Shown: positions 1,553 to 58,047 of the stretch, in pieces
Layout: the number at the start of each line of letters is the position of its first letter
How positions within the stretch are numbered: the stretch's first letter is position 1
IMG/VR virus record: IMGVR_UViG_3300021962_000060
Coordinates: 26,922-90,921 of that record
Reading direction: 5' to 3' (one strand)
Length of the DNA stretch: 64,000 nt
Origin: a virus
Made by a program: the position numbers and the translations under genes
The notes under the pieces: generated by a model
Database searches by the model: none
Told to the model about the DNA's origin: nothing
The model's input: the letters and a program-made list of their open reading frames with translations, nothing else

Positions 1553-1872
1553 TTGCCTTTCTGTACGGGGAAATAAGCAACATTCTTGATAGTAGAACCA
1601 AAGAAAGAACCACCGTTATGATTATGCTTTGCCCTACGGCCGGCTCGCAGTTTCATAACATAATCAGTACCTTGAGGATAATGAATCTTCTTCTTGATGT
1701 AATCAAACAAGGAGTTTGCCTCAACTCGTTTGCCAGAACTAAACACAAAGACGTAATAATCTTTGCCATCTTTGCTGACGATTTCCCAAGACATAATGCG
1801 ACCGTAATCAACACCATTTACATCATAGGAAATACCAACAATAGCATTACATTTATCTTCCATCTCAGACAT
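1549..1872 (-). CDS. Hypothetical protein, first gene of the small-ORF operon
   Basis: GAAAGGGA RBS; GTGA overlap with next gene. Confidence 0.7.
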   Translation of the reverse strand: MSEMEDKCNAIVGISYDVNGVDYGRIMSWEIVSKDGKDYYVFVFSSGKRVEANSLFDYIKKKIHYPQGTDYVMKLRAGRRAKHNHNGGSFFGSTIKNVAYFPVQKGK

Positions 1873-1919
1873 AACTGTTTCCCTTTCTATGATTTATCTT
1901 GCCCAATACCTGAACACTT

Positions 1920-2050
1920 GCGAGATAATACGCAGAGATAATACCAAACAAACACTTACAGAAATAGTAAGCAATACTCTCGCATTTGACTCGCCCATTG
2001 CTTTCCACAAATACGAGACTATCATAGGGACAAACCCAGGGAAAACTGAA
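1920..2050 (-). promoter_or_regulatory. Putative tandem sigma70-type promoters for the small-ORF region
   Basis: Minus strand TGG-TATTAT and TGA-TAGTCT extended -10-like boxes; direct repeat GAGATAATAC at 1922 and 1935. Confidence 0.4.
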
Positions 2051-2109
2051 CAGTAATTTTGTTTTTTGGCGAGAAAAGATTTGCACAAACGCAAGGAAAT
2101 GCGTCGAGA

Positions 2110-2189
2110 CCGGCCCTCTAACGTTAGAGGGGTTCTAACGTTACAGATGCTCTAACGTTACAGAGGAAATACATCAAAGATAGGGCCGG
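2110..2189. repeat. Three TCTAACGTTA units at 17-bp period, enclosed by the inverted repeat CCGGCCCT/AGGGCCGG
   Basis: Units at 2117, 2134, 2151; 18-bp perfect palindrome CCCTCTAACGTTAGAGGG at 2114-2131. Confidence 0.9.
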
Positions 2190-2306
2190 CTTTTAGAAAG
2201 AACAAGCTCGAGATTTTACATCGTCTTGGTATGTAAAACATAAGGTAATGAACACCACGCATTCTTTTACTCAATTCATACAAAAATTGAGTATGCGGCA
2301 GAGCGA

Positions 2307-3176
2307 CTATTTTTTCTTCTTAGAATTTTTGGATTTTGAAACTGAATTGACTGGATTACCATCATCATCAAGCACAGTTGCGTTATCGACAATCCAATCA
2401 ATAAGCCGGCCCTTATACTCAAACCGACCTAGGTGAGTTAACTCAATAGAAGGATCCACCCAAACCTCTCCGCCAATCTTCTGCCAATACCTTCCAAATC
2501 CATAGTCCTCAGACAAGAATCTTCCATCTTCATCGACATAACTATTGAACAGAGCATAAGAATAATCTCTTTCTGGACCCTTTAATGCACCAGTATCATC
2601 AACATACTTTAACTCAGGATAGGCTTCAAACAACTTCTCAAAAGCAGAACGCTTGATCAACATAAATCCTGTGCCGGCATCATAAATGGAAAGAGCACCA
2701 TTTTCCATTCTAATCTTATTGTCGCCCTTAGTCGCAGGATTGACCACAAATCTTGTGCTCTTTTCGGCAATCTTATCTTTGTCAAAATCATTTTTAGCTA
2801 GATGGACGACTTTATCCCACAAAATTTCTTTGATCGGATAAGCACCTGTCATAATTTCTTTATCATGCCATAGCATCTTGAGAATATCTTCATAATTGTA
2901 ACCAAGATCAACATCAATGAAAAGAAGATGCGTAAACATTGGATTAGCCATAAACTTAGCAACTAATTGATTTCGCGCTCTAGAGATTAGAGAATCACTA
3001 ATAGTGCTAATACCAAACTTCATACCGTATTCCTTAAAAGCCATAGCTGCCTTTATGGTGGACATAAAAAAAGGCTCAGTGATTTGCCTATCATAACAAG
3101 GAAGGCAAATAAGAGGATGCCAAGATTGAATTTGATCGGCAGAAATTTCAATATTTTGTTCGGTGGTTTCAAGCAT
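2307..3176 (-). CDS. GT-A fold (GT2-like) glycosyltransferase
   Basis: SRARN, LLFIDVD (DxD), GTGFMLIKR, LSEDYGF and HLG motifs; TGG-TATACT 6 nt before ATG 3176 (leaderless start). Confidence 0.75.
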   Translation of the reverse strand: MLETTEQNIEISADQIQSWHPLICLPCYDRQITEPFFMSTIKAAMAFKEYGMKFGISTISDSLISRARNQLVAKFMANPMFTHLLFIDVDLGYNYEDILKMLWHDKEIMTGAYPIKEILWDKVVHLAKNDFDKDKIAEKSTRFVVNPATKGDNKIRMENGALSIYDAGTGFMLIKRSAFEKLFEAYPELKYVDDTGALKGPERDYSYALFNSYVDEDGRFLSEDYGFGRYWQKIGGEVWVDPSIELTHLGRFEYKGRLIDWIVDNATVLDDDGNPVNSVSKSKNSKKKK

Positions 3177-3191
3177 GAAACAAGTATACCA

Positions 3192-3234
3192 AAACAAAAA
3201 ACCCTACGGTGTGAAACCGTAGGGTTTTTTGTTT
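3192..3234. terminator. Intrinsic terminator, potentially bidirectional
   Basis: AAACAAAAAACCCTACGGT-gtgaa-ACCGTAGGGTTTTTTGTTT. Confidence 0.85.
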
Positions 3235-3907: not shown

Positions 3908-5646
3908 ATTGATTCTATCCATTTCTCATTATTAATATAGTCAACATTGTGTTGACCATACCCTGGTGTAAACTCACCAAGATCTCTATTGTACACCTTT
4001 ACAGTGCCAAAATCTTCCATTTCCTCTTCATAATCCCATACTTTGTCAGGTGTCAATATTTCAATATCAACTTCTGTATCGTAGGCCATATTTTGAATAC
4101 AATTAAATACAGCGCCGGCTAATGCATCTGCTAAGTCTTTAGAACCACTACTTGGGTGATCTATCTTGTTATTATTAAACAACCTTAACTTCAAGAGCTC
4201 TTCTTCAACAAGAAGTTCATTCCAATATCCGCGAAGTCGAGTATCGTATATTGAAGTCATAAGAGTATCATAATCTGACTTTTTAACAGAATGGAAGTCG
4301 GCATTAATACCTTGAGATCTTAATGATTGAATCATTTCTACAGACTGCCATCTATCAAAAGTTACTAATCCAACTTGAAATTTACGACAAAGATCAACAA
4401 CCATCTGTCTTACAGAAGCAAAGTTAATTTCCGCACCAACACTTGCTTCCCAAGAATGAACTAGATCAACATTAACCACAGGTAGTGTTTCAACACCCAT
4501 AGAAGTTTTAACTTCTTTAAAGCCGGCCCCATGAGCCATGCATAAAGCAGCCCTATCTCGTTTTAAACCCAAGTCAATATGTATAAACCTTGTGTGACCG
4601 TCAGTACCATTAAACCACTTCTTAAAGTTGCCATCCTCTTCATCAATAGGATCCTCACCATAAGTAAAAGCTTTTCTAACAAGATCAGCATCTCTAAAAT
4701 ATGCGTCTTCCATATTCGGCGGTTCACACTCAAAACGCGCTCTTGCCTCAATAGGATTTCTAATAAACTCAGACTCAAGATCACTACGCTTAATCGTAGG
4801 ATTAACTTCCCAAGTTGCAGCTTTGATAAACCAAGTTTTTGGTTCTTTATTCTTCTCAGCACCAAAATATCTTTGCTGAATAAAGTCACCTTTGTACCGA
4901 GGGAAAGACAATAGAATTACCTTACCAACTTCTGGGAAACGTGACATTACAGATAATTTACTCATGTTATAAATAGCAGAAGCGGAGCCTTTAGATCTTG
5001 TTTCTCCACGTAATTCAGCATCAGTTTTGAAAGCAGAAATTTCGTCTAAAATCACAGACATAACCTCATAACCTTCCCATCCTTCACTTTCAGAGTGACC
5101 AGAGAAACACCTTACAGGTCTAGAGAAGAAAAAGATTTCCGATACTCTTGGCTCAAATCCAACTTCATTGAAGAAAGGTGAAGATAGCAAAAGATTTTTT
5201 AAAGGCTCAAAGAAAACTCTCTGAGCTTGCTGAGCGTTCACTGCAAGGTTTAATAGATCTATATACACACCAGTAGCTTTGCCGTAATAAGCCAATGGAT
5301 CCCTTAAGCAGTGTAACAAATATGCTGTATAAGCAATAGAGATTCTGGCACAGTGATCCTTACCGGATCCCTTTCCAAGCATGCATATAACCTCATTGTC
5401 AGTATATTTGTTATACCACTCTTCACCGGCCTGTTCACCCATAATCTTTTGTAACGTATGTTTTTTTAAAATTTGTGTGGAATGGCGCACAATTTCCAAT
5501 TGGATGGGCGATAATGGTGGTAGCCCAAGGTATTTTTTGTCTTGCACAAAAACTTCAATAGGAACAGGTTCTGTGGACAATTCATCTTGCTTTAATAATC
5601 TATCAAAATCTTTAAACTCAAGATTCATTCCAATAAAATCTGACAT
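3904..5646 (-). CDS. terL: Terminase large subunit
   Basis: Walker A GKGSGKD, Walker B VILDE, RNase H-like HIDLG and DLADA. Confidence 0.9.
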   Translation of the reverse strand: MSDFIGMNLEFKDFDRLLKQDELSTEPVPIEVFVQDKKYLGLPPLSPIQLEIVRHSTQILKKHTLQKIMGEQAGEEWYNKYTDNEVICMLGKGSGKDHCARISIAYTAYLLHCLRDPLAYYGKATGVYIDLLNLAVNAQQAQRVFFEPLKNLLLSSPFFNEVGFEPRVSEIFFFSRPVRCFSGHSESEGWEGYEVMSVILDEISAFKTDAELRGETRSKGSASAIYNMSKLSVMSRFPEVGKVILLSFPRYKGDFIQQRYFGAEKNKEPKTWFIKAATWEVNPTIKRSDLESEFIRNPIEARARFECEPPNMEDAYFRDADLVRKAFTYGEDPIDEEDGNFKKWFNGTDGHTRFIHIDLGLKRDRAALCMAHGAGFKEVKTSMGVETLPVVNVDLVHSWEASVGAEINFASVRQMVVDLCRKFQVGLVTFDRWQSVEMIQSLRSQGINADFHSVKKSDYDTLMTSIYDTRLRGYWNELLVEEELLKLRLFNNNKIDHPSSGSKDLADALAGAVFNCIQNMAYDTEVDIEILTPDKVWDYEEEMEDFGTVKVYNRDLGEFTPGYGQHNVDYINNEKWIESI

Positions 5647-5762: not shown

Positions 5763-6377
5763 CTATTCAACAATTTCTGCATCGTCAATGTCGGTAGTAT
5801 TATAAGTATCTGGATCAGACGCTGATTCAGCGTTACCGTTCATTATTTCAAATGCGAGAGCAAGTTCTTTTCTAACTTCTTCAGCAATTTCTGGATATTT
5901 TGATATAACATCTCTCAAAATTTTTGAGAGAATTTGATTGACACTCTCTGCTTTTTGCATTCGTGCAATGTAGTCACTGTCAGTAGAATTTCCTCCACTA
6001 ATCAATTTATGGAGTTGAGCCTTTTTGCCGGCAATATCTGACGCAAGTTTTAAAGCCTGGATTCTAACAGCAACCATGCCATGATCAGTAGCGATATTAA
6101 CAGTCTCCCAGGCTTCTTTGCTTATTTGATCAAATTCCTGCAGCGCTTTGATAGTATTAAACTGTATTTTTTCTAGGAAGTAAGGATCTTCATCAGCCTT
6201 TTTTTGCAAGAAATTTTTATACTGTTGAACATACTCTTTTGCCTTAGTGGAAGATACAGATAAAAGAGATCCTATCTCGCTGTAAGAGTAGCCTTTAATA
6301 TGCAGAATACCAGCATCCTCTATATCTTTAAGTTCAGATAAAATATCTTTACTGTTTGACTTTTCTATTTCAGTCAT
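5763..6377 (-). CDS. Probable terminase small subunit
   Basis: N-terminal HTH-like GYSYSEIGSLLSVS, helical body, position upstream of terL. Confidence 0.6.
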   Translation of the reverse strand: MTEIEKSNSKDILSELKDIEDAGILHIKGYSYSEIGSLLSVSSTKAKEYVQQYKNFLQKKADEDPYFLEKIQFNTIKALQEFDQISKEAWETVNIATDHGMVAVRIQALKLASDIAGKKAQLHKLISGGNSTDSDYIARMQKAESVNQILSKILRDVISKYPEIAEEVRKELALAFEIMNGNAESASDPDTYNTTDIDDAEIVE

Positions 6378-8460: not shown

Positions 8461-8463
8461 AAA

Positions 8464-9216
8464 TCAACTCCATTGAAAAGCAATCGGTATACCGGATTCC
8501 GAGGATTCCTTTTCAAGTTTCTCTTTTTCATACCCATGAATTTTAGTAAACTCAACTCTATAGTTGAACCAGCCAATAACGCCATTCCAAAACTTATCTT
8601 CTGTTGTATCGCGAAGTTTAATCAATTCCTCGTCTGTTAATAAAAAGCTTAAAACACCAAGAGGCATGTAAACTGTCAAATCATAGTTAACATCTTTATC
8701 AGCAGAATACTTTTTTAGAAGCATCTGATAGTCTTCAACTATCCTTTTAACAGCAGGGCCGGCATAGTGATCAATTGCATCATTTTCATTTCTTATTCTT
8801 GGACAAAAATCATCAACACTTGTTATGGTTCCAAAAGATCTACAAACAAGCGGTCTATAACCATATATACTGCATCCACCTTTATAGAAGGCACAATGAC
8901 GTTCAGTTTCTCCACCAGGCTTCCAGTCATCATCATGCATTGCATCAATTAAATCCTGAATGACACCGCCAATCCACTCATTAGCAAAGTCTTCACCTTT
9001 GCTTTCCATGAGGCGATAGCATTCCTGCTTCAAACTAAAAGCAATATTCGCACATTCCATCATGGGAATGGTCAAACCAATTTTACAACAATTACCAGAG
9101 CCAAGACACTTGTATTTTGTTTGATTTTGTTTGGCTTCTAAAACACGAACTTGATTGTAAATCATATCAAGATGTGCAAAAGTAGTAATATCTTTAATAT
9201 CGACACTTCTTCTCAT
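8464..9216 (-). CDS. YkgJ/FliB-like cysteine-cluster (Fe-S or Zn) protein
   Basis: YKCLGSGNCC...CAFY...CSIYGYRPLVCRSF. Confidence 0.75.
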   Translation of the reverse strand: MRRSVDIKDITTFAHLDMIYNQVRVLEAKQNQTKYKCLGSGNCCKIGLTIPMMECANIAFSLKQECYRLMESKGEDFANEWIGGVIQDLIDAMHDDDWKPGGETERHCAFYKGGCSIYGYRPLVCRSFGTITSVDDFCPRIRNENDAIDHYAGPAVKRIVEDYQMLLKKYSADKDVNYDLTVYMPLGVLSFLLTDEELIKLRDTTEDKFWNGVIGWFNYRVEFTKIHGYEKEKLEKESSESGIPIAFQWS

Positions 9217-11482: not shown

Positions 11483-12922
11483 TTACAAATATTCTGTCAT
11501 AACAGAAGCAATCCAAGAAACAACCGGAACAGCAACAGCATTTCCAATCATCTTGTATCGATTAGTGTTAGACACTTCTTTACCATCAGCACCATATCTA
11601 GTGTGATCATCATCAAAACCCATCAGACGCTCGCACTCAATAGGCGTAAGCCTTCTCAAGACCAAATCAGGTGTACAAACACCATGCTGAGAAACGGTAT
11701 CAAGAGTATAGGACGGGTCATTTGGCTCACCAAAACCCCTACCAGCAGGACCGGCAGAATCAGAACGCCCAATGATAGTACCCTGAATCGGAATAGCAGT
11801 AGGATCGCCAATCATAGGAACATTATTACCACCAGTACCCATCCTAGCTTTCAAAGTTGGCATAATACCATCATCATAAACACGAACATCATTGACTCTA
11901 GTACCATCCAAAATAAGAACAGTAGAACGAGATTCACTGTTATTATCAAAAGCATTCAAAGTGGGACTAACAGACTCATTAGCCCAAACTTCAGGCGGTA
12001 AATTGCCTTCAGCATCACGGGCACCTGACCTAATCACCTTGACAAACGATTCAACATTAGAATGCAAAACAAAGTTTTCATCAGGACGCTTATGACTAGT
12101 AGCCCTAAACGTAGAACCACCTTCCTTGTAATTACCAAAACCAGTCTTCCCATACAAGACAGGCTGGGCCACAGCGTTACCAGTACTCTCACGCCTCATC
12201 GGTGGAAAAGCATCAAAAGAAGGTTGACAATCAATACCATTCTTGTGGTTAAAACCTATTGCTTCTCCGCCAACAAGTCCAGCGCTTTCTTCAGAGCCGG
12301 CGGAAGAGCGTTGCCTCTTCTTTCTGACCTTCTTAAGATTCCCACTGCTGTCTTCGGGGACAGGTAGTATTTGGTTTCCACTTCTTCCAACGATTGCAGG
12401 ATCGAAACAAGCAATGAGGAAGACTCTACGCCTTCTGTGTGGGATTCCAAACCATTGTGCATCCAACACGTGCCATTCAATTGCCAATGCCCCGATGTTT
12501 GCCATTTCGTCAAGGACTGCTGCGAAGTCGTTTCCTTTATTACTTGTGAGGGCACCTGGGACGTTTTCCCAAATAGCGACTCTTGGATATGTATTTCCTG
12601 TTGCATTTCTCATCTCCTTAATAATTCTGGTTGCTTCAAAAAACATAGACGATCTCTCGCCATCTAAACCGGCACGCTTACCAGCAACAGACAAGTCCTG
12701 ACAAGGCGAACCAAAACTAACAACATCAACAGGCTTAATATCAGCACCATTGACACCACAAACATCCAAATACTTATCAGTATCTGGCCAATGATAACTC
12801 AACACATTCTGGCAATGCTTATCCCATTCAATTTGCCAAGAACACTCCCAGCCGGCAGACTCAAAACCACGATCAAAACCGCCGATACCAGCAAACATAC
12901 TACCAAAAGTAATCTTATTCAT
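11483..12922 (-). CDS. C5 cytosine DNA methyltransferase (large subunit)
   Basis: Motifs I FAGIGG, IV GSPCQ, VI WENV, VIII HRRRRVF, RRLTPIECERLMGF, X GNAV. Confidence 0.92.
   Translation of the reverse strand: MNKITFGSMFAGIGGFDRGFESAGWECSWQIEWDKHCQNVLSYHWPDTDKYLDVCGVNGADIKPVDVVSFGSPCQDLSVAGKRAGLDGERSSMFFEATRIIKEMRNATGNTYPRVAIWENVPGALTSNKGNDFAAVLDEMANIGALAIEWHVLDAQWFGIPHRRRRVFLIACFDPAIVGRSGNQILPVPEDSSGNLKKVRKKRQRSSAGSEESAGLVGGEAIGFNHKNGIDCQPSFDAFPPMRRESTGNAVAQPVLYGKTGFGNYKEGGSTFRATSHKRPDENFVLHSNVESFVKVIRSGARDAEGNLPPEVWANESVSPTLNAFDNNSESRSTVLILDGTRVNDVRVYDDGIMPTLKARMGTGGNNVPMIGDPTAIPIQGTIIGRSDSAGPAGRGFGEPNDPSYTLDTVSQHGVCTPDLVLRRLTPIECERLMGFDDDHTRYGADGKEVSNTNRYKMIGNAVAVPVVSWIASVMTEYL
12256..12606 (-). 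CDS. Nested alternative-frame methyltransferase small subunit (M.EcoHK31I beta-like)
   Basis: AAGGAG 8 nt before ATG; SLLVSILQ...KYYLSPKTAVGILRRS...LPPALKKAL. Confidence 0.7.
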   Translation of the reverse strand: MQQEIHIQESLFGKTSQVPSQVIKETTSQQSLTKWQTSGHWQLNGTCWMHNGLESHTEGVESSSLLVSILQSLEEVETKYYLSPKTAVGILRRSERRGNALPPALKKALDLLAEKQ

Positions 12923-20846: not shown

Positions 20847-20854
20847 AATGAATA

Positions 20855-20884
20855 GTGCCGGCAGGCGTAAGATCCTGCCGGCAC
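20855..20884 (-). terminator. Hairpin/terminator after SSB
   Basis: GTGCCGGCAGG-8nt-CCTGCCGGCAC. Confidence 0.65.
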
Positions 20885-20894
20885 CACTCCTTTC

Positions 20895-24144: not shown

Positions 24145-24370
24145 TTACATCCTCAACTTTTTTCCATTTTGACATTAAACGATCAAACTCTGTTGTGCCG
24201 GCTACAACTCCAATAACTTCTTCTAATTCAGAATTATATAATATACATTCGTTAACGACAGTACATTTTTTGCACCCATTAACAGCATACTCAATTTTTT
24301 CTAAATTATAAGAAACCCAATGGGAGTGATGATTGTCATTGGCACAAATAGCTTGATTTCGCCAATTCAC
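24125..24370 (-). CDS. whiB: WhiB-family Fe-S transcription factor
   Basis: W...AIC, CKKCTVVNEC, GVVAG (variant of GVWGG). Confidence 0.75.
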   Translation of the reverse strand: MNWRNQAICANDNHHSHWVSYNLEKIEYAVNGCKKCTVVNECILYNSELEEVIGVVAGTTEFDRLMSKWKKVEDVNDNNWE

Positions 24371-41438: not shown

Positions 41439-41488
41439 AGGCTGTACCAAATACAATTATGTCATTAAAACAACATAAAAGCAATAAT

Positions 41489-43431: not shown

Positions 43432-44007
43432 TCACAATCTCACATTTTTATATTTTTTACTTAATTCTTGAACGGCAATTCTTCTACTCATAGTAGAAAT
43501 TTTTTCTCGTTTCATACCATTCTTTGCACTGAAATGGAATGGGCCAACTTGAGGTATCTTCAAAGGACCGAGCATTTTTGTACCCTTCTTCCATCGACCA
43601 CTAGTTCTAGATATCACATAGCGTCGAGTTCCACCACTCTTGCCCCTTCTTGGCCCTTGGACAGTCGCCCTTCTACCAACCTTCCCTTCTTCAGAATTTA
43701 AAAATATTCTAGTAGCCCATATAACGCTATATTGCCTCTTATGACCACCAGAGCCTCTTCGACCACCGCGTCCTCTTGGATCGTTTTGAATAACCAATTT
43801 CACGCCAACTTTTCCAACTCTCCTGTAGTACACGGCAACAAATCTGCCGGCACCACCTCTTCTTTTCAAATTGTCTTCAATTAAAAGTGCAGAACTAAAA
43901 ACTGCCTTTTCATTAGCTTTTGCAATTCTATTTGGAAAAGAGTTAACTTTTTCTTCTAAATTTTTAATATTATTAAAAGCTGTTTTATTAATTGTGACAT
44001 TAAGCAT
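43432..44007 (-). CDS. Highly basic head-tail/tail completion protein
   Basis: R/K/G-rich; HK97 gp10-like position. Confidence 0.6.
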   Translation of the reverse strand: MLNVTINKTAFNNIKNLEEKVNSFPNRIAKANEKAVFSSALLIEDNLKRRGGAGRFVAVYYRRVGKVGVKLVIQNDPRGRGGRRGSGGHKRQYSVIWATRIFLNSEEGKVGRRATVQGPRRGKSGGTRRYVISRTSGRWKKGTKMLGPLKIPQVGPFHFSAKNGMKREKISTMSRRIAVQELSKKYKNVRL

Positions 44008-49454: not shown

Positions 49455-52069
49455 TATGTAGCCCTAATAATAAATAAAATATTTGTAACTGGCGTTGTAT
49501 GAGTATGAGCCAAAGTAGAAGCATTAACAGTACTTGCTGTACCAGCTGTAAAGGTTGAGTTAACACCAGTTGTGGAGTTGTTATTAGCAGCAGCATTAGC
49601 GCCAGTTCTTCCACCTTCATTAGACAAATAGTGAACATGGTAAACATCAGCAACACCATTAGGACCAACTTGACTTCCGGTGCCAAAGTTTGCATTATAG
49701 TTGTGCGAGTGAGATCCTTCTCCGCCGGTATTGTTATTAGCACCAGAGTTTGGCTTAAAATAAACGTGCGTATGGTTTCCAACGTTTCCAGTATTAAAGT
49801 TTACATTGGCAAAATGGTGGTGCAAAGTAGATTCATTTGTTGTGCTTCCACTAAGAGGATGAGTATGAGCAGTAGCATTGCCAGCAGTAAAAGAGGAGTT
49901 TACTGTATGAGTGTGTGCATCAACGGCCGACGATGCGCTACTAGTTACCGTATCTGGAACCGTAGGTGTCCCAGTAATGCCCTCTGGAACTCTACCGGCG
50001 AAATCAGGAACTCTGAATGTTCCAGCACCTGCCGATCCATAGCGAGTACCAATAACATTTGACAATGAAGTATATGAACTTGTATTATACGCAGTACCAT
50101 CACACAGCAACCATCCTGCTGGGATTGTAGCAGTATTACCAGACCACATGATCACTCCGCCAATAGGCGTAAAGCCAGCGTATGCAGTGTCAACCGCAAC
50201 AGTAGCAGTCGAACCTTCAGCCGGAGTATGAGTGACACTAATACCTGTTCCGGCAGAAACATTTGACATATAATTACCTGTAGTATCAGTACCAAGTGCA
50301 ACTGAATTAGCAGCAATAGTTGCTACACCTGTATCAGAAATACTAATATCACCACTAATTGTAGTGTATGTAGGAACTCCTGAACTATTGGCAACAATAA
50401 CTTGCCCTGATGAACCGGATGCTAATTTTGAAAGAGCAACAGCTGCTGAAGAACTTATGTCGCCGTTTACAATGGTTCCATCAGCAATCATTGCTGACGT
50501 AACCGTACCGGAGTCAGAAGCTGTAATAATATTACCGTATGTGGAGCCATCATTTGTTAACTCCCATTTATCATTTGTTTCATTCCAGCGAATAAGCACA
50601 TTAGTAGATGTTCCACGCTCAACTTCAATGCCGGCATCTTCTGTTGGAGATCCAGTAGCATTATTATTAAGAATAATAATATTGTCATCAACTGTTAATG
50701 TTTCTGTGTTTACAGAAGTTGTTGTACCAGAAACTGTTAGGTTTCCAGTTACAACTAAATTGTCATCAACTGTAACTGTTCCACCGGATGAATCAATAGT
50801 TAAATTACCACTTGCAGTATCAATCTCATTTGATGCAGTAACTCCAATTTGAATGGCATCTAATGTAGCTCCAGCAAATGTAGGATTTGCTGAAGTATGA
50901 ATATCCTGTGGAAGAGAGAGTGTTACAGCGGCAGTTTCAGATCCCGATCCAGAGACAGTGATTTGATTGGCTGTTCCAGAAATTGTTGCAACATAATTGC
51001 CCGATGTATCAGTACCTAAATCAATAGCATCAGCAACCCATAAAGATCCATTATATTTTAAAAATTCACCGGAGCTAGGTGAAGGTAAACTTACATTATG
51101 TAGTTCATCAAGCTCATAACCATTCTGAGTAGCAACATAAATAATTCCATTATTAGTTGCTCTTACAACTACACCTATAAAAACAAGATGATCTGGAGCT
51201 GTTGGCTTAGTCTTAGTGAATGCACCATTCTCGCCAAGCCATAAAACATCACCAGCAGTATATCCAGTAGATAAATCAATACCATCAACATATCCACGTG
51301 TAATTACTGGACCATTTTGGCTAGCGGCTATGCTTGCACCAACAACACCAATAGTTTTAGATGATGTACTATCATTATTATTGTCAGCTCGTTTTACAGT
51401 AGCATGGTCTCCAGTTGCACCAAATAAATAAACACATGTGCCAGTAGTTAAAGTGTTAGCTTCGGCATTTTGAACATAAGAAACTAATGGAATATAACCA
51501 TTTATCCAAGATGTTCCATTATATGATAAAGACTGGAATTCTTCTGGCGAAGTTATAACAACATCTGTTAGACCATCTAAAGTAGTTGCACCACCACCGC
51601 CAGAAAGAAGATTAGTCCCCGCACCGCTAGCGCATGCGGTTAAGTCAATATAAGCACCTCTAGCGGAACCACCTTGCTCAAAAAATCTAATTTTATTTTG
51701 ATATGCATCAATTGTTATACCACCATCTAGAGTGGTATTCGCCTGAGGCTTTGCTAAAAAAAATTCACCACCTTCATCACCAGATGAATAATTTGATATA
51801 ATTTTTCCATTAACAGTTATACTATTAGAAATAGTAACATCACTTGGTAAACTAATCGTAAACACACCAGATGACTCACTAACGGATATCTGATTGGTAG
51901 TGCCAGCAATATTGCTTATCAACCTTGTGTTTACTACAATATTTGACGTATTTTTATAAAATAGTCTACCATCAGCATAATTTATTGCTAGTTCACCATG
52001 CTCTAAATTGTTTGATGCAGGGACATTGGAGGATGTACCACTATTTTTAATTTTTATAGTATTAGACAT
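49454..52069 (-). CDS. Fibre protein with tail-collar domain and HxH-rich tip
   Basis: GELAINYADG N-terminus; PIGGVIMW..IPAGWLLCDG..FRVPDF.GR collar; repeated HTH/HSH/HVH. Confidence 0.85.
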   Translation of the reverse strand: MSNTIKIKNSGTSSNVPASNNLEHGELAINYADGRLFYKNTSNIVVNTRLISNIAGTTNQISVSESSGVFTISLPSDVTISNSITVNGKIISNYSSGDEGGEFFLAKPQANTTLDGGITIDAYQNKIRFFEQGGSARGAYIDLTACASGAGTNLLSGGGGATTLDGLTDVVITSPEEFQSLSYNGTSWINGYIPLVSYVQNAEANTLTTGTCVYLFGATGDHATVKRADNNNDSTSSKTIGVVGASIAASQNGPVITRGYVDGIDLSTGYTAGDVLWLGENGAFTKTKPTAPDHLVFIGVVVRATNNGIIYVATQNGYELDELHNVSLPSPSSGEFLKYNGSLWVADAIDLGTDTSGNYVATISGTANQITVSGSGSETAAVTLSLPQDIHTSANPTFAGATLDAIQIGVTASNEIDTASGNLTIDSSGGTVTVDDNLVVTGNLTVSGTTTSVNTETLTVDDNIIILNNNATGSPTEDAGIEVERGTSTNVLIRWNETNDKWELTNDGSTYGNIITASDSGTVTSAMIADGTIVNGDISSSAAVALSKLASGSSGQVIVANSSGVPTYTTISGDISISDTGVATIAANSVALGTDTTGNYMSNVSAGTGISVTHTPAEGSTATVAVDTAYAGFTPIGGVIMWSGNTATIPAGWLLCDGTAYNTSSYTSLSNVIGTRYGSAGAGTFRVPDFAGRVPEGITGTPTVPDTVTSSASSAVDAHTHTVNSSFTAGNATAHTHPLSGSTTNESTLHHHFANVNFNTGNVGNHTHVYFKPNSGANNNTGGEGSHSHNYNANFGTGSQVGPNGVADVYHVHYLSNEGGRTGANAAANNNSTTGVNSTFTAGTASTVNASTLAHTHTTPVTNILFIIRAT

Positions 52070-52080: not shown

Positions 52081-53817
52081 TTAGAAAGTTCCTCCATCTA
52101 TTGTAACAAGATCAAGCGTGATACTGCTGATATTTCCACCAGTAATTGACACATTATTAGCATTTTGAGTAGCCATAGTGCCAAGCCCCAAAGTGGTTCT
52201 AGCGGCTGAAGCATCAGCATCATCAAGCAAAGTTCTTGCATATGAAGTTAAAGTTGCAACATCGAAAGTATCTAGGCCAGTAGCATAAATTAGACTATTA
52301 GCGGCAGTTGTGACATTAGCCAGCGCCGCTAAAGTTGCATCATAAGCCTGGACATTCGTGCCTATAGCAAGACCAAGATTAGTTCTCGCAGTACCAGCAT
52401 CAGTTGCGCCAGTGCCTCCGTATGCGACAGCGATAGCAGTGCCCTGCCAAACACCAGTACCGATTGTTCCAACCGATGTTAGGCTAGAACCAGTTACACC
52501 AGAGCCAAGAGTGGTTCCCGACAAAACAGTAACTCCATTAATCTTATACTCTTTACCAGTTAAAAGATTAAGGTGTTCCGAAGAAGTCCAAGAGTCAGTA
52601 GCATCAACCCAGTTGAATGTCTTATCAGTTGTACCCTTCAGAGTAATACCACCGCCATCAGCGCCAGCATCAGACGGAGTGTAAGAATCGGAAGCAGAAC
52701 CTAATTCAAGATTCTTATCATCAACAGTGATAGTAGTAGAATTAATTGTAGTAACTGTTCCATTAACAGTTAAGTTGCCTGTAACAGTAGCATTACCGCC
52801 AACAGACAGATCGGTTGTAATAGTAACACTAGACGGCAATCCAATAGTCACAGAGCCGGTAGAGTTATTAACCTCAACCTCATTTGCGGTTCCAGTAATC
52901 GAAGTAACACCGGCGTTAGTAACGGTAAAAGTACCGCCTTCAGTACCCGTATTAGACAGACTGATCCCAGTTCCTGCCGAAATAGAACCAACATAATCAC
53001 CAGTAGTATCGGTGCCAAGAGCAACCGAGTTAGCAGCAACAGTCGCATTTAAAGTAGCACTACCAAGATTTGTAATAGTAACATTACCAGTAAGATCACC
53101 ACCAAGGGTTATTGTGAAGTCAGCAACATCTAAGTTAAGTTTTGAATTAGCATCATCATAAGTAGCTCCAATACCACTATGGGTTCCATTAGTAAAAAGA
53201 GCAGCAGCGGCATCTTGGGCATCTTCAGTAAATCCACTAATTTGACCGGCATTGATTGAAATAGTTGTATTCCCAGCAGCGGTCAAACGACCATACGAAT
53301 CAACAGTAAAAGTAGCAACAGTGCCGGCTCCACCATACGATCCAAGAGTAACACCTGTAGTAGTTAAGGAAAGATCAATAGCGCCATCGCCAGCATCATC
53401 ATAAGAAGCAGATATACCAGTATGACTACCATTAGTAACAAATTGACCGCCAACAACATCCTGCACCTGCTCGGAACTAACAGTAGCTCCAGAAACAGCA
53501 GCGTCAACATAAGCAGTAGTAGCTACCGCAGTTGAATTATTATTAGGACTTTTAGTTGCAGCAATAGCGCTTGAACCAAGATCAACCGTTCCAGAAAAAG
53601 TCTTATTACCAGTAATGGTCTGGACACCGGACAGGGTTAAGAATGCACCACTGCCTCCAATGGAAATGACAGTATTCGCATCGCCATTGATATCAGTTCC
53701 AAAACCATAATATAAAACATTATCGACTTCATTAAATGCCAGTTCAGCATTCTTCAAAGAAGCGGGTGCGCCAGAAGCACCACTAGCCCTTCTTTTGATT
53801 CTAATTGTATTAGACAT
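52081..53817 (-). CDS. Fibre protein
   Basis: AELAFN N-terminus, G/T/A-rich repeats, GGTGAT..ARTNLGL, IDGGTF end. Confidence 0.8.
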   Translation of the reverse strand: MSNTIRIKRRASGASGAPASLKNAELAFNEVDNVLYYGFGTDINGDANTVISIGGSGAFLTLSGVQTITGNKTFSGTVDLGSSAIAATKSPNNNSTAVATTAYVDAAVSGATVSSEQVQDVVGGQFVTNGSHTGISASYDDAGDGAIDLSLTTTGVTLGSYGGAGTVATFTVDSYGRLTAAGNTTISINAGQISGFTEDAQDAAAALFTNGTHSGIGATYDDANSKLNLDVADFTITLGGDLTGNVTITNLGSATLNATVAANSVALGTDTTGDYVGSISAGTGISLSNTGTEGGTFTVTNAGVTSITGTANEVEVNNSTGSVTIGLPSSVTITTDLSVGGNATVTGNLTVNGTVTTINSTTITVDDKNLELGSASDSYTPSDAGADGGGITLKGTTDKTFNWVDATDSWTSSEHLNLLTGKEYKINGVTVLSGTTLGSGVTGSSLTSVGTIGTGVWQGTAIAVAYGGTGATDAGTARTNLGLAIGTNVQAYDATLAALANVTTAANSLIYATGLDTFDVATLTSYARTLLDDADASAARTTLGLGTMATQNANNVSITGGNISSITLDLVTIDGGTF

Positions 53818-54871: not shown

Positions 54872-54873
54872 GA

Positions 54874-55173: not shown

Positions 55174-55210
55174 AATATAATTGTATCACAATTTAACTTA
55201 TACAAAGCAA

Positions 55211-55234
55211 AAGCCCCAGTTTTCACTGGGGCTT
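55211..55234 (-). terminator. Intrinsic terminator after major capsid
   Basis: AAGCCCCAGT-GAAA-ACTGGGGCTT followed by TTGCTTT on the minus strand. Confidence 0.85.
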
Positions 55235-55272
55235 CCACCGAACATTATGTGTAACTATAACGTCCTAAGGTA

Positions 55273-56304
55273 TCAGAGGCTACGAAGCTTAACGTTCTTA
55301 GCAATCACATACGAATCAGCATTCTCAATGTTGGAAGCAACTCGCATATACTGCGTATACTCAATAGTGTCAGTCTTCGGCTTGAACTGGCGGTACACCG
55401 TGATGTCACGATGGATACCAATCACACGGTTATTCGGGAACGTAAGCTCCACATAACCATGCGAACCAGCAGCACCCGAGTAGTCACCGCTAACAGCCTC
55501 AGGCATCAACGGAACCTCAACCAACGGAATACCGAAGGGGGCGATTCCAGTAGCACCCGCACCACCATTCGCACGCATCGCACCCGTCAAGAACGCAGTG
55601 TCGCCAATCATAGAGCCAGGCGAAGGCGCACCAGCAGTAGCAGCAGTAGCGCTGTTGGGATTAGACAGGCTGAAGATGGTGTCCTGAACAACGCCAGCAC
55701 CAGAGAAGAACTTCAACTCGTTGCGACGCTGCAGGTACTTAGCCGGCAAGTTACGAAGAATGCGATCATAAGTCGCACGCGACACGTTGTTGCCAGCCTC
55801 ATCAACGGTACGACCGTCAGTGATAGCCAACTTGACAAAGCCATTAAGAGCCTTAAGCAAGGTGTTGTTGGACGAGGTGTTGCCATTGATGAAAAGATCG
55901 TCCATGTCATTCGCCGTCTGACGGGCCATGACCTGAGCGATGTGATCCTCAAGCGAGGCTCCCTCAATATTGTCCTCAAGGGACTCGGTGCTGATCGCCC
56001 AGTCAAGACGAAGCTTGACGGTGCTCAAAGACACCTTAGTAAAGGTAACGGCGGCATTAGCGCCGGTGTCAGTCGCCTCGGTAGCTTTTGCAAGCAAACG
56101 GGTTCCAACGGAGAGCTTGTCAATCTCCATCTGGGGGGTACGCATGCGAACCACTCGCGAGTTCTGCATAAGAACCGACTGATCAATAACGAAGTCAATA
56201 AAACGATTCGACTGCGCCGGCTTCATCAAACCACCACTATCGTTGTTCACAACGCTAGTGGTGACTTCATCTGCCTTGGATAAAATTTCATTCTGAGTTG
56301 CCAT
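55273..56304 (-). CDS. Major capsid protein (HK97 fold)
   Basis: GGLM.P.Q..RFID, ESLEDNIEG, DLFING; AGGAGG RBS; strong codon bias. Confidence 0.9.
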   Translation of the reverse strand: MATQNEILSKADEVTTSVVNNDSGGLMKPAQSNRFIDFVIDQSVLMQNSRVVRMRTPQMEIDKLSVGTRLLAKATEATDTGANAAVTFTKVSLSTVKLRLDWAISTESLEDNIEGASLEDHIAQVMARQTANDMDDLFINGNTSSNNTLLKALNGFVKLAITDGRTVDEAGNNVSRATYDRILRNLPAKYLQRRNELKFFSGAGVVQDTIFSLSNPNSATAATAGAPSPGSMIGDTAFLTGAMRANGGAGATGIAPFGIPLVEVPLMPEAVSGDYSGAAGSHGYVELTFPNNRVIGIHRDITVYRQFKPKTDTIEYTQYMRVASNIENADSYVIAKNVKLRSL

Positions 56305-56319
56305 ATTTAATTCCTCCTA

Positions 56320-58047
56320 TTATGACTCATAACCAAGGGCAGTGATCAAGCCCTGGGGTAAATAAACGTTGTTCCAGATAGAAGCCGGAGCCGACTTGAC
56401 AATAACCTCGTCATCCTCTTCTTCCACATCAACACTCTTCTTGATAGCACCAGAAGCGGCAATTGCCTTAACAGTCTCTTCCTGCTCAGCCAAAGCCTTC
56501 TCAGTTGCGCTCAACTTCTCTTCAAGTTCAGTCTTCTGAACTTCAAAACTCTTTGAAATGCTGTCAATCTTTTCCTGAACAGCAACTTCAACCTCTTCCT
56601 TAATCGAAGTAGCGAAGTTAGCCAGTTTCTCGTCAACTACAGCACCAAGAGCATCCTTAAGGATTTCAATATCCATTTCTTCCTCCAATGTGTTCTCAGT
56701 TACTTCAACTTTAGATTCTGTTGAAGCTGTCTCTTCTACATCTTGAACAAGCCAATTAACAAAACGCTTAAGAAGCGAAAGTTTCTTATACTCTTGCTCA
56801 TCCATGTTTAAGATCGTATCATATTCTACATCATTTTGCAATGACTGGTCTTGCGTTTTAAAGATTTCTTTGCTCTCATCTAATTCAACAGAATCTTGCA
56901 TTTCTAAAATCTCATTCAACAATTCAATAATATCATTTTCACTAGCATCTAGTTTATTATTTTCAATATTTATACTATCTAGATCCAAAGTAACAGAATC
57001 ATCTTTTATCATATTTGACTCCCTTTTAACTTTAATCTTCTTTCTTCTTCTGGGCTTCATAGCTGAAGGTTCCTGAGTATATCCCTGAGTAGGATTGGCA
57101 ATTCCAGATCCCATTGATCCAGTAGAAATCTCGCCCTCTTTTTCAACAGAACATCCGCAAGAGCATTCCTGCTTTTCAATATCAAAATCAGACTCAGACT
57201 TGGTAGTGCAATTATTTAAAGTTTCAGTTTTTGATCTAGCCCAAGCCCATCCAGCATCTCCACCCCATAGATTCCAAGCAATACGACCATTTGATGGGTA
57301 TCCTTCTTCACCAGGGTTCCAGCCTTTACCTTGCTTATCAACTTCATGGCGCGGAAAGTATTTAGCAACTTTCCTTACAAACTCAGGAGTTGCCTTACCA
57401 CCAGCTGCAAGCCTACGAGCAGATCCAAGACCGACACTAGTACCACCTCGACCATGCTCTTTTCTTTGATTAAGACCAGCCTGAGCCGCCTTCCTAACAG
57501 CATCGGGAATTGTAAGATCAATATCATTGCAATCAACTTTTAATATATAATCCAATTCACCATCATTTGACATCTTAACTATATCAATAACAGCAATTTG
57601 ATTTGCAGGATTGTCAACTAAACTTAATTCACCAAGTTCATATCTTTTAATCACATTAGCCGGCTTTCCTCTAAAAACTTTTTTAGTATCAACTTCTTTT
57701 TCAAGAATACGACCGCCTATAGAAAAAGCACGTAAAGTGCCATCAAGAACTTTTTCCCAAGTATCTTGAGCACCTTTAGAAATATAAGCCTCTACTCTGA
57801 TAGCATTAAACTCTTCACCGTCAGCATTTTTAATTTTTACTGGTTCATAATTAATAGCTTTGCCAACAGCAATCGGAGAATGCATTTCTCTTATATTGCC
57901 GGCCCAGTTCTTAAAAGCAAGCAAAGATGCGTTAAAATCAACAATATCTCCGGCTTTATCAATATTGTCAGCAGTAGCAATACCAACAACAATTCTTTCT
58001 TCTTTTTTCACCATAGAAATGGGAAACATTAAATTAAAATTTTCCAT
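56320..58047 (-). CDS. Prohead protease/scaffold fusion with inserted domain
   Basis: IREMH, AFSIGG, ELSLVDNPAN; central PSNGRIAWNLWGGDAG domain; acidic coiled-coil C-terminus. Confidence 0.88.
   Translation of the reverse strand: MENFNLMFPISMVKKEERIVVGIATADNIDKAGDIVDFNASLLAFKNWAGNIREMHSPIAVGKAINYEPVKIKNADGEEFNAIRVEAYISKGAQDTWEKVLDGTLRAFSIGGRILEKEVDTKKVFRGKPANVIKRYELGELSLVDNPANQIAVIDIVKMSNDGELDYILKVDCNDIDLTIPDAVRKAAQAGLNQRKEHGRGGTSVGLGSARRLAAGGKATPEFVRKVAKYFPRHEVDKQGKGWNPGEEGYPSNGRIAWNLWGGDAGWAWARSKTETLNNCTTKSESDFDIEKQECSCGCSVEKEGEISTGSMGSGIANPTQGYTQEPSAMKPRRRKKIKVKRESNMIKDDSVTLDLDSINIENNKLDASENDIIELLNEILEMQDSVELDESKEIFKTQDQSLQNDVEYDTILNMDEQEYKKLSLLKRFVNWLVQDVEETASTESKVEVTENTLEEEMDIEILKDALGAVVDEKLANFATSIKEEVEVAVQEKIDSISKSFEVQKTELEEKLSATEKALAEQEETVKAIAASGAIKKSVDVEEEDDEVIVKSAPASIWNNVYLPQGLITALGYES

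What the first reader, a model, noticed from the sequence alone, without database searches (positions are those of the whole stretch)
1639..57903. Palindrome GCCGGC is heavily over-represented (HIP-like)
Seen: I hand-counted 32 copies (e.g. 1639, 2185, 2405, 2673, 4114, 4522, 6027, 8758, 9887, 12296, 12851, 19861, 20857, 20877, 24197, 27405, 29046, 29868, 33224, 34627, 34733, 34939, 43846, 47185, 48738, 50630, 53323, 55742, 56216, 57659, 57898). About 2 are expected at ~35% GC. Other all-GC palindromes (GGGCCC, CCCGGG, GGCGCC) looked rare. Established: phages usually avoid palindromes; cyanobacterial HIP1 and E. coli Dcm/Vsr link site enrichment to methylation and repair. Inference: GCCGGC may be a methylation/modification site actively generated by biased repair, possibly tied to the phage C5-MTase or a host enzyme.
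Basis: partly seen in the sequence, partly recalled or inferred. Interest (0 to 1): 0.7.

Follow-up and report, generated by a model that had tools for sequence, protein, structure and literature searches.

The report
Iterated GCCGGC palindrome in freshwater actinophage
This uncultured freshwater actinobacterial phage carries the six-letter palindrome GCCGGC about five times more often than its proteins and codon habits require, and keeps it over long evolutionary time. Most of its relatives have deleted the same word completely, so the cause acts on the DNA word itself and is not yet identified.

Summary
The window holds 32 GCCGGC (2.4 expected by composition) and the 91-kb genome holds 47. 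In coding DNA there are 29 against 5.1 under an amino-acid- and dinucleotide-preserving shuffle (z 11.5), the top outlier of all hexamers.

- **Not a codon effect.** The excess is 4-5-fold in both usable reading frames and about 20-fold in non-coding DNA. Flanks carry no information and spacing is Poisson-like.
- **Clade trait.** It is confined to one clade of a large family related to Streptomyces BE-cluster phages. Most relatives have zero copies. A sub-clade nested inside the rich clade has purged the word, keeping CCGG only inside CCCGG/CCGGG.
- **Maintained.** Sites are shared in place across saturated synonymous divergence (p 0.006), and new sites arise by several changes inside conserved flanks.
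- **No repair signature.** GCTGGC and GTCGGC are not depleted and the phage has no Vsr gene, so Vsr-type repair is not supported.
- **Methylase link is ambiguous.** A 32-residue module in the phage's modular C5-methylase appears with the rich clade. Its loss or alteration coincides with decay or purge. However, methylase-less relatives show a weaker excess.

The closest known case is the 'alternate HIP' rCCGGy of Oscillatoria. This scan has already noted GCCGGC excess in at least 29 other genomes.

The parts
1639..1644 (.). GCCGGC site, in-frame GCC-GGC (Ala-Gly) in minus-strand ORF 1549-1872
2185..2190 (.). GCCGGC site, intergenic
2405..2410 (.). GCCGGC site, frame 1 (Gly-Arg-Leu) in ORF 2307-3197; GGCGGC in the close relative L126
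2673..2678 (.). GCCGGC site, Ala-Gly frame, ORF 2307-3197; shared in place with L126, L142 and G006
4114..4119 (.). GCCGGC site, Ala-Gly frame, ORF 3904-5646 (weak terminase-like match); shared with L126, L142, G006 and L107
4522..4527 (.). GCCGGC site, Ala-Gly frame, ORF 3904-5646; shared with L142, but ACCAGC in L126 and G006
6027..6032 (.). GCCGGC site, Ala-Gly frame, ORF 5763-6377; shared with L126, L142, G006 and L107; AACAGC in purged G001
8758..8763 (.). GCCGGC site, Ala-Gly frame, ORF 8464-9216; private gain. L126, L142, G006, L144 and G001 all read ACCACC, so three changes lie inside the hexamer while flanks are 96% identical to L126
9887..9892 (.). GCCGGC site, frame 2 (Leu-Pro-Ala) in the RuvC-like gene 9493-10083; GCAGGC in L126
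11483..12928 (-). C5 cytosine DNA methyltransferase (P0001, 481 aa) with a roughly 230-residue modular variable region holding four 'PTL'-type TRD-like modules; itself carries sites at 12296 and 12851
12161..12256 (-). Module X of the methylase (residues 225-256, GFNHKNGID...FPPMRRESTGNAVAQP). The PMRRESTGN form is found only in GCCGGC-rich genomes, a TMRVESGGN form in the purged sub-clade, and the module is absent in the decayed L144/L150 lineage and in all outgroup methylases
12296..12301 (.). GCCGGC site, Ala-Gly frame, inside the methylase gene; shared with L126, GCTGGC in L142
12851..12856 (.). GCCGGC site, Ala-Gly frame, inside the methylase gene; shared with L126, L142 and G006; GCCAGC in purged G001
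19861..19866 (.). GCCGGC site, Ala-Gly frame, DNA polymerase gene 16930-20313; shared with L142
20850..20889 (-). Intergenic hairpin between the SSB gene and the next gene: 16-bp stem, -32.3 kcal/mol, z -7.9. Both arms contain GCCGGC (sites 20857 and 20877). Shared with G006 and L144. The purged G001 keeps the stem as GCTGGC...GCCAGC
24197..24202 (.). GCCGGC site, Ala-Gly frame, small WhiB-family gene 24125-24370; GCCAGC in G001
27405..27410 (.). GCCGGC site, Ala-Gly frame, ORF 27045-27722; GCCAGC in G001
29046..29051 (.). GCCGGC site, Ala-Gly frame, tail-fibre-like gene 28488-30110
29868..29877 (.). Two overlapping sites (GCCGGCCGGC; 29868 in frame 0, 29872 in frame 2), gene 28488-30110
33224..33229 (.). 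GCCGGC site, Ala-Gly frame, minor tail gene 30110-33958; ACCAGC in G001 and G002
34627..34632 (.). GCCGGC site, Ala-Gly frame, ORF 34474-34872
34733..34738 (.). GCCGGC site, frame 2 (Lys-Pro-Ala), ORF 34474-34872
34939..34944 (.). GCCGGC site, frame 2, 3' end of the tape-measure gene 34869-41456 (the only site in 6.6 kb)
43846..43851 (.). GCCGGC site, Ala-Gly frame, ORF 43432-44031
47185..47190 (.). GCCGGC site, frame 2 (Trp-Pro-Ala), gene 46647-48011; shared with L004
48738..48743 (.). GCCGGC site, frame 2, 2OG-Fe(II) oxygenase gene 48041-48826
50630..50635 (.). GCCGGC site, Ala-Gly frame, tail gene 49454-52069
53323..53328 (.). GCCGGC site, Ala-Gly frame, gene 52081-53817; shared with L003
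55742..55747 (.). GCCGGC site, frame 2 (Leu-Pro-Ala), major capsid gene; shared with L003 and L004. The other aligned relatives (84 aligned in all) mostly read GTTGGC or CTTGGC, so the gain included a Thr/Ser-to-Ala replacement
56216..56221 (.). GCCGGC site, frame 2 (Lys-Pro-Ala), major capsid gene; shared with L003 and L004; relatives mostly GCTGGC or GCTGGT
57659..57664 (.). GCCGGC site, frame 2, head protease gene 56320-58047; shared with L004; relatives read ACAGGT, ACTGGT and similar
57898..57903 (.). GCCGGC site, Ala-Gly frame, head protease gene; private relative to L004 (ACCAGC, two synonymous changes)

Best explanation
Shown: GCCGGC is an iterated palindrome of the HIP kind. A force acting on the double-stranded DNA word, not on translation, holds it at about one copy per 1.9 kb in one clade of freshwater actinophages. 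The pattern fits mutation-selection balance: sites decay by ordinary mutation, leaving a halo of transition neighbours, and are kept or re-created with a fixation bias. Inferred: the most likely reader of the word is a cytosine-5 methylation system for GCCGGC/RCCGGY. The candidates are the phage's own modular, probably multispecific C5-methylase, which gained an extra TRD-like module at the base of the rich clade, and/or a matching host enzyme. On this reading the methylated word is tolerated and favoured while the phage can keep it modified. Lineages whose module changed or was lost, or which met CCGG-cutting hosts, lost the word by decay or purged it outright. Why more methylated copies would be better is not known.
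For: DNA-level action: the excess has the same fold in frame 0 (24 against 5-6) and frame 2 (12 against 2.4-2.7) and is about 20-fold in non-coding DNA (11 against 0.55). G006 shows the same. There is no flank information, no positional bias within genes, and Poisson-like spacing. Other GC-only words such as GCCGCC are not enriched. Clade trait: the polymerase tree of 80 relatives and the concatenated tree place all strongly rich genomes (G000, L126, L142/G014, G006) in one clade. The purged sub-clade is nested inside it and the sister L151 has 0 copies. Maintenance: 5 of 8 sites at conserved Ala-Gly positions are shared by G000 and G006 although four-fold sites are saturated (identity 0.43); Fisher p 0.0056. 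Six of 12 sites are shared with L142 at 76% nucleotide identity. Directed gains: ACCACC became GCCGGC through three changes inside flanks that are 96% identical, and capsid sites were gained with an amino-acid change. Selection-like, not neighbour-converting: transition neighbours are at or above expectation. Methylase link: the PMRRESTGN form of module X occurs only in rich genomes. The altered form goes with the purge. Deletion in L144/L150, and no module X found in the 20 kb of G015 searched, go with decay to 2-6 sites per 20 kb. ACCGGC/GCCGGT are also mildly enriched and ACCGGT is not, as in the rCCGGy case of Oscillatoria PCC 10802, which carries an rCCGGy methylase. In the purged clade every remaining CCGG (35 of 35) lies in CCCGG/CCGGG, which shows that context-specific protection shapes these genomes.
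Against: No methylation data exist. The association with module X rests on essentially one gain, one alteration and one loss on a single tree. An unrelated phage with a canonical module X (G012, 51% GC) has 0 GCCGGC against 9.4 expected. Relatives with no C5-methylase gene in the DNA held (G017 80% complete, G016, G002) still show an excess: 14 against 6.7, 7 against 2.0, and 12 against 2.2. The phage methylase is therefore not required for a moderate effect. Module X has no detectable relatives among typical bacterial methylases; only 7 hits turned up in 1.8 billion proteins, all in modular methylases or fragments of them. m5C normally makes its own site decay, and no benefit of extra methylated sites is known.
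Confidence: 0.38

Rival explanations
1. The word is read by a protein unrelated to methylation, from the phage or the host. Examples would be a recombination, replication or DNA-end-protection signal (a palindromic Chi-like or loading site), or a site that switches off a DNA-tracking defence. Each copy would give a small additive benefit, and the methylase module would be a passenger of the same clade.
For: The signs of selection on the bare hexamer are positional conservation, multi-step gains, no depletion of neighbours, and an excess in all frames and in non-coding DNA. Methylase-less relatives (G017, G016, G002) keep a moderate excess, and other CCGG-core words are enriched elsewhere in the family: CCGGCA at z 7-8 and TCCGGG/CCCGGA at z 9.8. 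The phage runs its own recombination set: RecA-like, RuvC-like, exonuclease and SSB.
Against: No candidate reader was found. No gene is present in rich genomes and absent from purged ones. Spacing is random, with no positional or end bias. The only proteins known to read GCCGGC are restriction-modification enzymes.
Confidence: 0.3
2. This is a repair-driven mutational ratchet in the host. Either a Vsr-type very-short-patch repair linked to a host GCCGGC m5C methylase, or the methyl-directed ratchet proposed by Elhai, would convert T:G mismatches in near-sites into full sites. The excess would then be a by-product with no function.
For: There are precedents: Dcm/Vsr in E. coli (own knowledge), ScmA/VsrA at YGCCGGCR in Caulobacter (PMC12907096), and Elhai's model for rCCGGy and GGCGCC (PMC4390886). 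In purged G001 the sites read GCCAGC/GCTGGC, one transition away. A host process would also explain an excess in methylase-less relatives.
Against: GCTGGC/GCCAGC (31 against 30.7) and GTCGGC/GCCGAC (17 against 11.9) are not depleted in G000, nor in G002. The sum of site plus T-neighbours is raised, not redistributed. Gains include transversions and amino-acid changes. The phage has no Vsr gene. Actinobacteria lack MutS/MutL (own knowledge).
Confidence: 0.12
3. This is a by-product of avoidance. So many other words are forbidden by host restriction (TCCGGA, CCCGGG, GGCGCC, CTGCAG, GCAGG-type words and others) that Ala-Gly and Pro-Ala are pushed into the one safe spelling.
For: Many palindromes are at zero. 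GCA-GGN is under-used, 11 against 32. CCTGCA and CTGCAG are strongly depleted.
Against: GCT-GGT, GCT-GGC and GCT-GGA remain common and are not avoided. The excess is largest in non-coding DNA, where no spelling is forced. Relatives with similar avoidance lists have zero GCCGGC.
Confidence: 0.07
4. This is a translational or codon-pair preference for GCC-GGC.
For: 19 of the 32 window sites are in-frame Ala-Gly, and GCC before Gly codons is generally favoured, 40 against 16.7.
Against: The excess has the same fold in frame 2 and is 20-fold in non-coding DNA. It survives shuffles that preserve amino acids and dinucleotides. Sister genomes with the same proteins have none.
Confidence: 0.03

Closest known systems
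Alternate highly iterated palindrome rCCGGy of Oscillatoria PCC 10802 (Elhai 2015, PMC4390886)
   Same: GCCGGC is grossly over-represented at about 1 per 1-2 kb, with GCCGGT and ACCGGC also raised and ACCGGT not. A C5-methylase is present. Related genomes carrying the orthologous methylase under-represent the same words.
   Different: This is a virus, not a cyanobacterium. The methylase specificity is unknown. The host phylum lacks MutS/MutL, which Elhai's model requires (own knowledge). Relatives purge the word completely. Methylase-less relatives keep a weaker excess.
HIP1 (GCGATCGC) of cyanobacteria
   Same: A GC-rich palindrome spread through coding and non-coding DNA in all frames, conserved in place beyond background, and associated with orphan methylases.
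   Different: A different word and length. HIP1 is reported as quasi-periodic (abstract of PMC13756078), whereas spacing here is Poisson-like.
Dcm/Vsr (CCWGG) skew in E. coli and ScmA/VsrA (YGCCGGCR) in Caulobacter (PMC12907096)
   Same: An m5C target containing GCCGGC, and the idea that repair alters word abundance.
   Different: There is no Vsr gene in the phage, the T-neighbours are not depleted, there is no Y...R flank preference, and the excess is far larger.
Multispecific C5-methyltransferases of Bacillus phages (SPR, phi3T, rho11s, H2; own knowledge)
   Same: One catalytic core carries several short target-recognising modules in tandem, and these are gained, lost and shuffled among relatives.
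   Different: Those enzymes are known only as protection from restriction. No enrichment of their targets is described, and the targets of the modules here are untested.
Restriction-site (palindrome) avoidance in phages
   Same: It applies to most relatives (GCCGGC 0, often CCGG 0) and to many other palindromes in this window.
   Different: For GCCGGC in this clade the sign is reversed.

Membership tests
Highly iterated palindrome (HIP-type element) | A palindromic word far above composition and codon-aware expectation, and the top outlier among words of its length | tested here: met
   32 against 2.4 by composition. Coding DNA 29 against 5.1 (z 11.5). Rank 1 of 4096 hexamers.
Highly iterated palindrome (HIP-type element) | Spread genome-wide through coding DNA (all frames) and non-coding DNA at roughly one per 1-2 kb | tested here: met
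   47 in 91 kb. Frames 24/1/12 and 11 non-coding, each 4-20 times expectation.
Highly iterated palindrome (HIP-type element) | Copies conserved in place among orthologues beyond background divergence | tested here: met
   5 of 8 shared with G006 at saturated synonymous divergence, Fisher p 0.0056. Six of 12 shared with L142.
Highly iterated palindrome (HIP-type element) | A methyltransferase specific for the word is encoded in the same genome | tested here: inconclusive
   A C5-methylase is present and one of its modules tracks the rich state. Its specificity is unknown, G012 is a counter-example, and methylase-less relatives are mildly rich.
Highly iterated palindrome (HIP-type element) | The word is methylated in vivo | not testable with these tools
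   This needs bisulfite, EM-seq or nanopore data.
Vsr-type very-short-patch repair skew | A Vsr endonuclease gene is present | tested here: not met
   PF03852 is absent from the 91-kb phage record. The host genome could not be reached.
Vsr-type very-short-patch repair skew | Depletion of the T-containing deamination neighbours | tested here: not met
   GCTGGC/GCCAGC 31 against 30.7, and GTCGGC/GCCGAC 17 against 11.9.
Codon-pair or translational bias | Excess confined to one reading frame and to the coding strand | tested here: not met
   Frame 2 and non-coding DNA are equally or more enriched.
Restriction-site avoidance | The word is under-represented relative to a codon-aware expectation | tested here: not met
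   The sign is reversed in this genome. It is met in the relatives G001, G004 and G008, in Jay2Jay, and in most of about 150 loci.
Chi-like or uptake-signal words | The same word is over-represented in the host genome | not tested
   No host genome could be reached.

The most novel reading that the evidence does not exclude
Self-mark mimicry. The host marks its own, GC-richer DNA by methylating GCCGGC, and a DNA-tracking defence is switched off when it meets methylated marks. A phage that carries a matching methylase module would then gain with every extra methylated copy, so an AT-rich phage is selected to write the host's mark into its genome at host-like density. Relatives without the matching module must delete the word. 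This would explain the all-or-nothing pattern seen here and in the many AT-rich phages that this scan flagged for the same word.
Probability: 0.12. Interest if true: 0.85.

Novelty: new variant of a known kind. Interest (0 to 1): 0.62.

Why it matters
Phages are expected to avoid short palindromes, and most relatives of this one do so completely. This system shows the reverse, and it also carries a natural switch: a rich clade, a nested purged clade and a decayed lineage all share orthologous genes. The candidate determinant is a 32-residue module in a modular methylase that can be cloned and assayed. That makes the long-open question of how and why iterated palindromes (HIPs) arise testable in a small genome. 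It would also show whether methylase targets can be positively selected rather than merely tolerated. The same word was flagged by this scan in at least 29 other genomes, mostly AT-rich phages, so the cause may be general.

Tried and rejected
- **Codon-pair artefact.** Rejected by the shuffles, the frame counts and the non-coding counts.
- **Longer hidden motif.** Rejected: there is no information in 15 bases on either side, and 8-bp palindromic extension is at chance.
- **Regular spacing or gene-position signal.** Rejected: the coefficient of variation of gaps is 1.0-1.2 and KS p is 0.34. The only feature is a small excess of close pairs, which come from hairpin arms.
- **General GC-rich patches.** Rejected: GCCGCC, GCCCGC and CCCGGC are not enriched.
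- **Vsr or TET genes in the phage.** Absent.
- **A gene present in rich genomes and absent from purged ones.** None found. The PAPS-reductase-like gene, the DenV-like glycosylase and the Methyltransf_24 gene do not separate the two states.
- **Specificity of the methylase from solved structures or a fold model.** Only the catalytic core matches M.HhaI and M.HaeIII, and the AlphaFold model of residues 194-424 is unreliable, with pLDDT below 50.
- **Independent test of module X in unrelated contigs.** Only two were found. One is rich (G011, 64 against 41 by Markov) and one is purged (G012, 0 against 9.4), so the test is inconclusive.
- **Host identification.** Two WhiB genes, and synteny and capsid similarity to Streptomyces BE-cluster phages, indicate an actinobacterial host. 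The host-bias test could therefore not be run.
- **Nearest phage records by DNA.** No match.

Full report
**The observation**

The window (37.1% GC) holds 32 GCCGGC. Composition predicts 2.4. The other GC-only palindromes are absent or at chance: GGCGCC, CCCGGG, CCGCGG, CGCGCG and GCGCGC 0, GGGCCC 2, CGGCCG 6. Many other palindromes are at zero, including TTCGAA, CCATGG, GGTACC, GTCGAC, GTGCAC and TCCGGA. The flanks of the 32 copies differ. Across 93 copies from three rich genomes, no flanking position carries more than 0.05 bit. The window is bases 26922-90921 of a 90,921-base viral contig with 47 copies.

**Not a coding artefact**

Nearly all genes lie on the minus strand.
- Of the 32 sites, 19 are in-frame GCC-GGC (Ala-Gly), 9 are nnG-CCG-GCn, 1 is in the third frame and 3 are intergenic.
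- GCC is 13.5% of Ala codons and GGC is 19.6% of Gly codons, so 3.3 GCC-GGC are expected among 124 Ala-Gly pairs. Nineteen are seen.
- I shuffled synonymous codons within genes. I also shuffled third bases while keeping amino acids and all dinucleotides. Both give 47 observed against about 20 for the genome, of which about 12 sit in unshuffled positions (sd 2.4, z 11). GCCGGC is the top outlier of all 4096 hexamers.
- Coding DNA alone: the window has 29 against 5.1 (z 11.5), G000 has 37 against 8.2.
- By frame in G000: 24 against 5-6, 1 against 0.2-0.5, and 12 against 2.4-2.7. Non-coding DNA has 11 against 0.55.

The same fold in both usable frames, and the largest excess where nothing is translated, point to a force on the DNA word. 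Four of the non-coding copies are the arms of two GC-clamped hairpins. The one in the window is at 20850-20889, with a 16-bp stem, -32.3 kcal/mol and z -7.9. Sites show no bias along genes, and gaps are Poisson-like with a coefficient of variation of 1.0.

**What the phage is**

It is a siphovirus. It encodes portal, protease, capsid and a 2195-aa tape measure. Its replication set comprises a 1127-aa DNA polymerase, DnaB-type helicase, DnaG-type primase, SSB, RecA-like protein, RuvC-like protein and exonuclease. It also has ribonucleotide reductase, three GT4 glycosyltransferases and two WhiB genes. The capsid is 49% identical to that of Streptomyces BE-cluster phages such as Jay2Jay, and the structural module is syntenic. 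An actinobacterial host is therefore very likely. The host genome could not be reached.

**Relatives**

- Eighty contigs with capsids 82-100% identical hold 27 copies in 844 kb against 63 expected by composition. Eighteen of the 27 sit in four contigs; 3 and 7 are in the two nearest relatives (L003, L004), 6 in L054 and 2 in L038. Most contigs have none.
- Eighty contigs found through the polymerase show three states: all CCGG removed (0 against about 25), only GCCGGC absent, or GCCGGC-rich.
- Jay2Jay has 0 in 41 kb at 48% GC, where 7.8 are expected.
- On the polymerase tree, the strongly rich genomes fall in one clade: G006 (33 in 63 kb), G000, and L145/L191 (= L142/G014, 17 in 18 kb). Two more rich contigs are not on that tree. 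L126 (6 in 11 kb) has a methylase 95% identical to that of G000, and L004 (7 in 12.7 kb) is the nearest relative by capsid. The sister L151 has none.
- A sub-clade with zero copies (G001, G008 and five more contigs) is nested inside the rich clade, next to L142. The concatenated replication-protein tree agrees, with all nodes at 97/96 or better.
- That sub-clade avoids CCGG altogether (22 against 76). Every remaining CCGG in G001 and G008 (35 of 35) lies in CCCGG or CCGGG.
- At the G000 sites, G001 mostly reads GCCAGC, GCTGGC or ACCAGC, and these words are in excess there, 34 against 22.

The simplest history is one origin of the rich state, long retention, and a later purge under CCGG-type restriction.

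**Maintenance and gain**

G000 and G006 are saturated at four-fold sites (identity 0.43). Even so, 5 of the 8 sites lying at conserved Ala-Gly positions are shared. Among 37 conserved Ala-Gly pairs the expected overlap is 1.7 (Fisher p 0.0056). Six of 12 sites are shared with L142 at 76% nucleotide identity, and L142 has ten more of its own.

Against the close relative L126 (88% identity), the site at 8758 differs by three changes inside the hexamer. Its flanks are 96% identical and five other relatives agree with L126. L126 in turn has a private site four changes away from the G000 sequence. Capsid sites were gained partly through amino-acid replacement at variable residues. G002, rich by 13 in 45 kb, shares no site position with G000, so gains are independent.

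**Against Vsr-type repair**

The phage has no Vsr or TET gene. The deamination neighbours are not depleted: 31 against 30.7 and 17 against 11.9. Transition neighbours are at or above expectation and several transversion neighbours are below it. This is the halo expected around abundant sites that decay by mutation. It is not a pool being converted into sites.

**The methylase**

P0001 has the C5 catalytic core and a variable region of about 230 residues. That region holds four modules with a 'PTL'-type signature. Relatives delete, duplicate or move these modules.

| State of module X (residues 225-256) | Genomes | GCCGGC content |
|---|---|---|
| PMRRESTGN form | G000, L126, L142, G006 | rich |
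| TMRVESGGN form | the whole purged sub-clade | 0 |
| missing | L144/L150; none found in the 20 kb of G015 searched | 2-6 per 20 kb |
| missing | all outgroup methylases | 0-1 (3 in L215/L216) |

This fits a target-recognising module for GCCGGC or RCCGGY, but the evidence is thin.
- The association rests on few independent events.
- The module has only seven distant relatives in 1.8 billion proteins, all in modular methylases or fragments of them.
- Of two unrelated contigs carrying the canonical form, one is rich and one is purged.
- Relatives with no C5-methylase gene in the DNA held still show a 2-3.5-fold codon-aware excess of GCCGGC, and a stronger excess of CCGGCA/TGCCGG at z 7-8.
- Other lineages enrich other CCGG-core words: TCCGGG/CCCGGA in G005 (41 against 11) and TCCGGC/GCCGGA in G003.

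The family therefore seems to have a wider tendency to either purge or multiply CCGG-core words. The G000 clade is the strongest and the palindromic case.

**Comparison with the known**

The nearest described case is Elhai's 'alternate HIP' rCCGGy in Oscillatoria PCC 10802. There GCCGGC, GCCGGT and ACCGGC are over-represented, ACCGGT is not, and an rCCGGy m5C methylase is present. Other genomes with the same methylase under-represent these words (PMC4390886). G000 shows the same sub-pattern: ACCGGC/GCCGGT 34 against 21.9, and ACCGGT 7 against 11.3. Elhai's mechanism needs methyl-directed MutS/MutL repair, which Actinobacteria lack (own knowledge). Caulobacter ScmA/VsrA shows that solitary GCCGGC methylases paired with Vsr exist (PMC12907096).

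Earlier notes of this scan report the same word in excess in at least 29 other genomes, mostly AT-rich phages, with purging in close relatives. I confirmed that pattern independently for this family.

**Verdict**

The excess is real, strong and acts at DNA level. It is heritable and is maintained like a selected feature. Its link to cytosine methylation is the best lead but is unproven (0.38). Vsr-type repair and codon effects are not supported.

Noticed in passing
relatives G001 (65 kb; loci L087-L090) and G008 (36 kb; L115-L116): In the purged sister clade, all 22 and all 13 remaining CCGG lie in CCCGG or CCGGG (35 of 35; chance is about 0.34 each). In G000 these contexts are instead under-used. 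This suggests CCGG restriction combined with CCSGG/CCNGG-type protection, possibly from the altered methylase module.
   Followed up: partly
relative G005 (100 kb; L117-L121): The non-palindromic pair TCCGGG/CCCGGA occurs 47 times. In coding DNA it is 41 against 11 by dicodon shuffle (z 9.8), on both strands and in several frames, in a 96%-complete genome with no C5-methylase gene. TCCGGA is also raised there (23 against 13.5), while it is 0 in G000, G006, G002, L142 and G001.
   Followed up: partly
relatives G017 (L235-L239) and G016 (L240-L242): The top hexamer in both methylase-less genomes is CCGGCA/TGCCGG (53 against 21 and 30 against 8.7; z 7-8). An earlier scan note reports TGCCGGCA multiplied in a Streptomyces phage.
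   Followed up: no
window, whole length: Many 6-bp palindromes are at zero against 7-21 expected by composition: TTCGAA, CCATGG, GGTACC, GTCGAC, GTGCAC, TCCGGA, GACGTC, CGTACG, CGATCG and ACGCGT. CTGCAG has 2 copies and ATCGAT 3. The lists differ between close relatives.
   Followed up: partly
window 11483-12928 (-): The C5-methylase has four short 'PTL'-type modules, and relatives show deletions, duplications and relocation of these modules. It resembles the multispecific methylases of Bacillus phages. A lysine/arginine-rich linker (KKVRKKRQR) precedes the variable region.
   Followed up: partly
window 20845-20895 (-): A 13-codon GTG-started mini-ORF runs through the GCCGGC hairpin. It follows an AAAGGAG box and ends in ATGA, which overlaps the start codon of the next gene.
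   Followed up: no
window 7552-9216 (-) and genome 20124-21029 (L123:124-1029, -): A PAPS-reductase-like gene, an adjacent CxxCxxCC iron/zinc-domain gene and a ParB/DndB-like DUF6551 gene could form a DNA-modification set. The PAPS-reductase gene is present in G000, G006 and G008 but not in G001, G003, G004 or G005. It does not track the GCCGGC state.
   Followed up: partly
window 48041-48826 (-): A 2OG-Fe(II) oxygenase of the prolyl-hydroxylase type sits in the tail-fibre module. It is not of the TET/JBP type.
   Followed up: no
genome 1-27000 (L122, L123), outside the window: AACGTT occurs 81 times in the genome but only 10 times in the window, so it is concentrated in the early cassette region. 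GCCGGC there forms hairpin arms next to a CGTTAGAG box (5249/5261, 2588, 8362).
   Followed up: no
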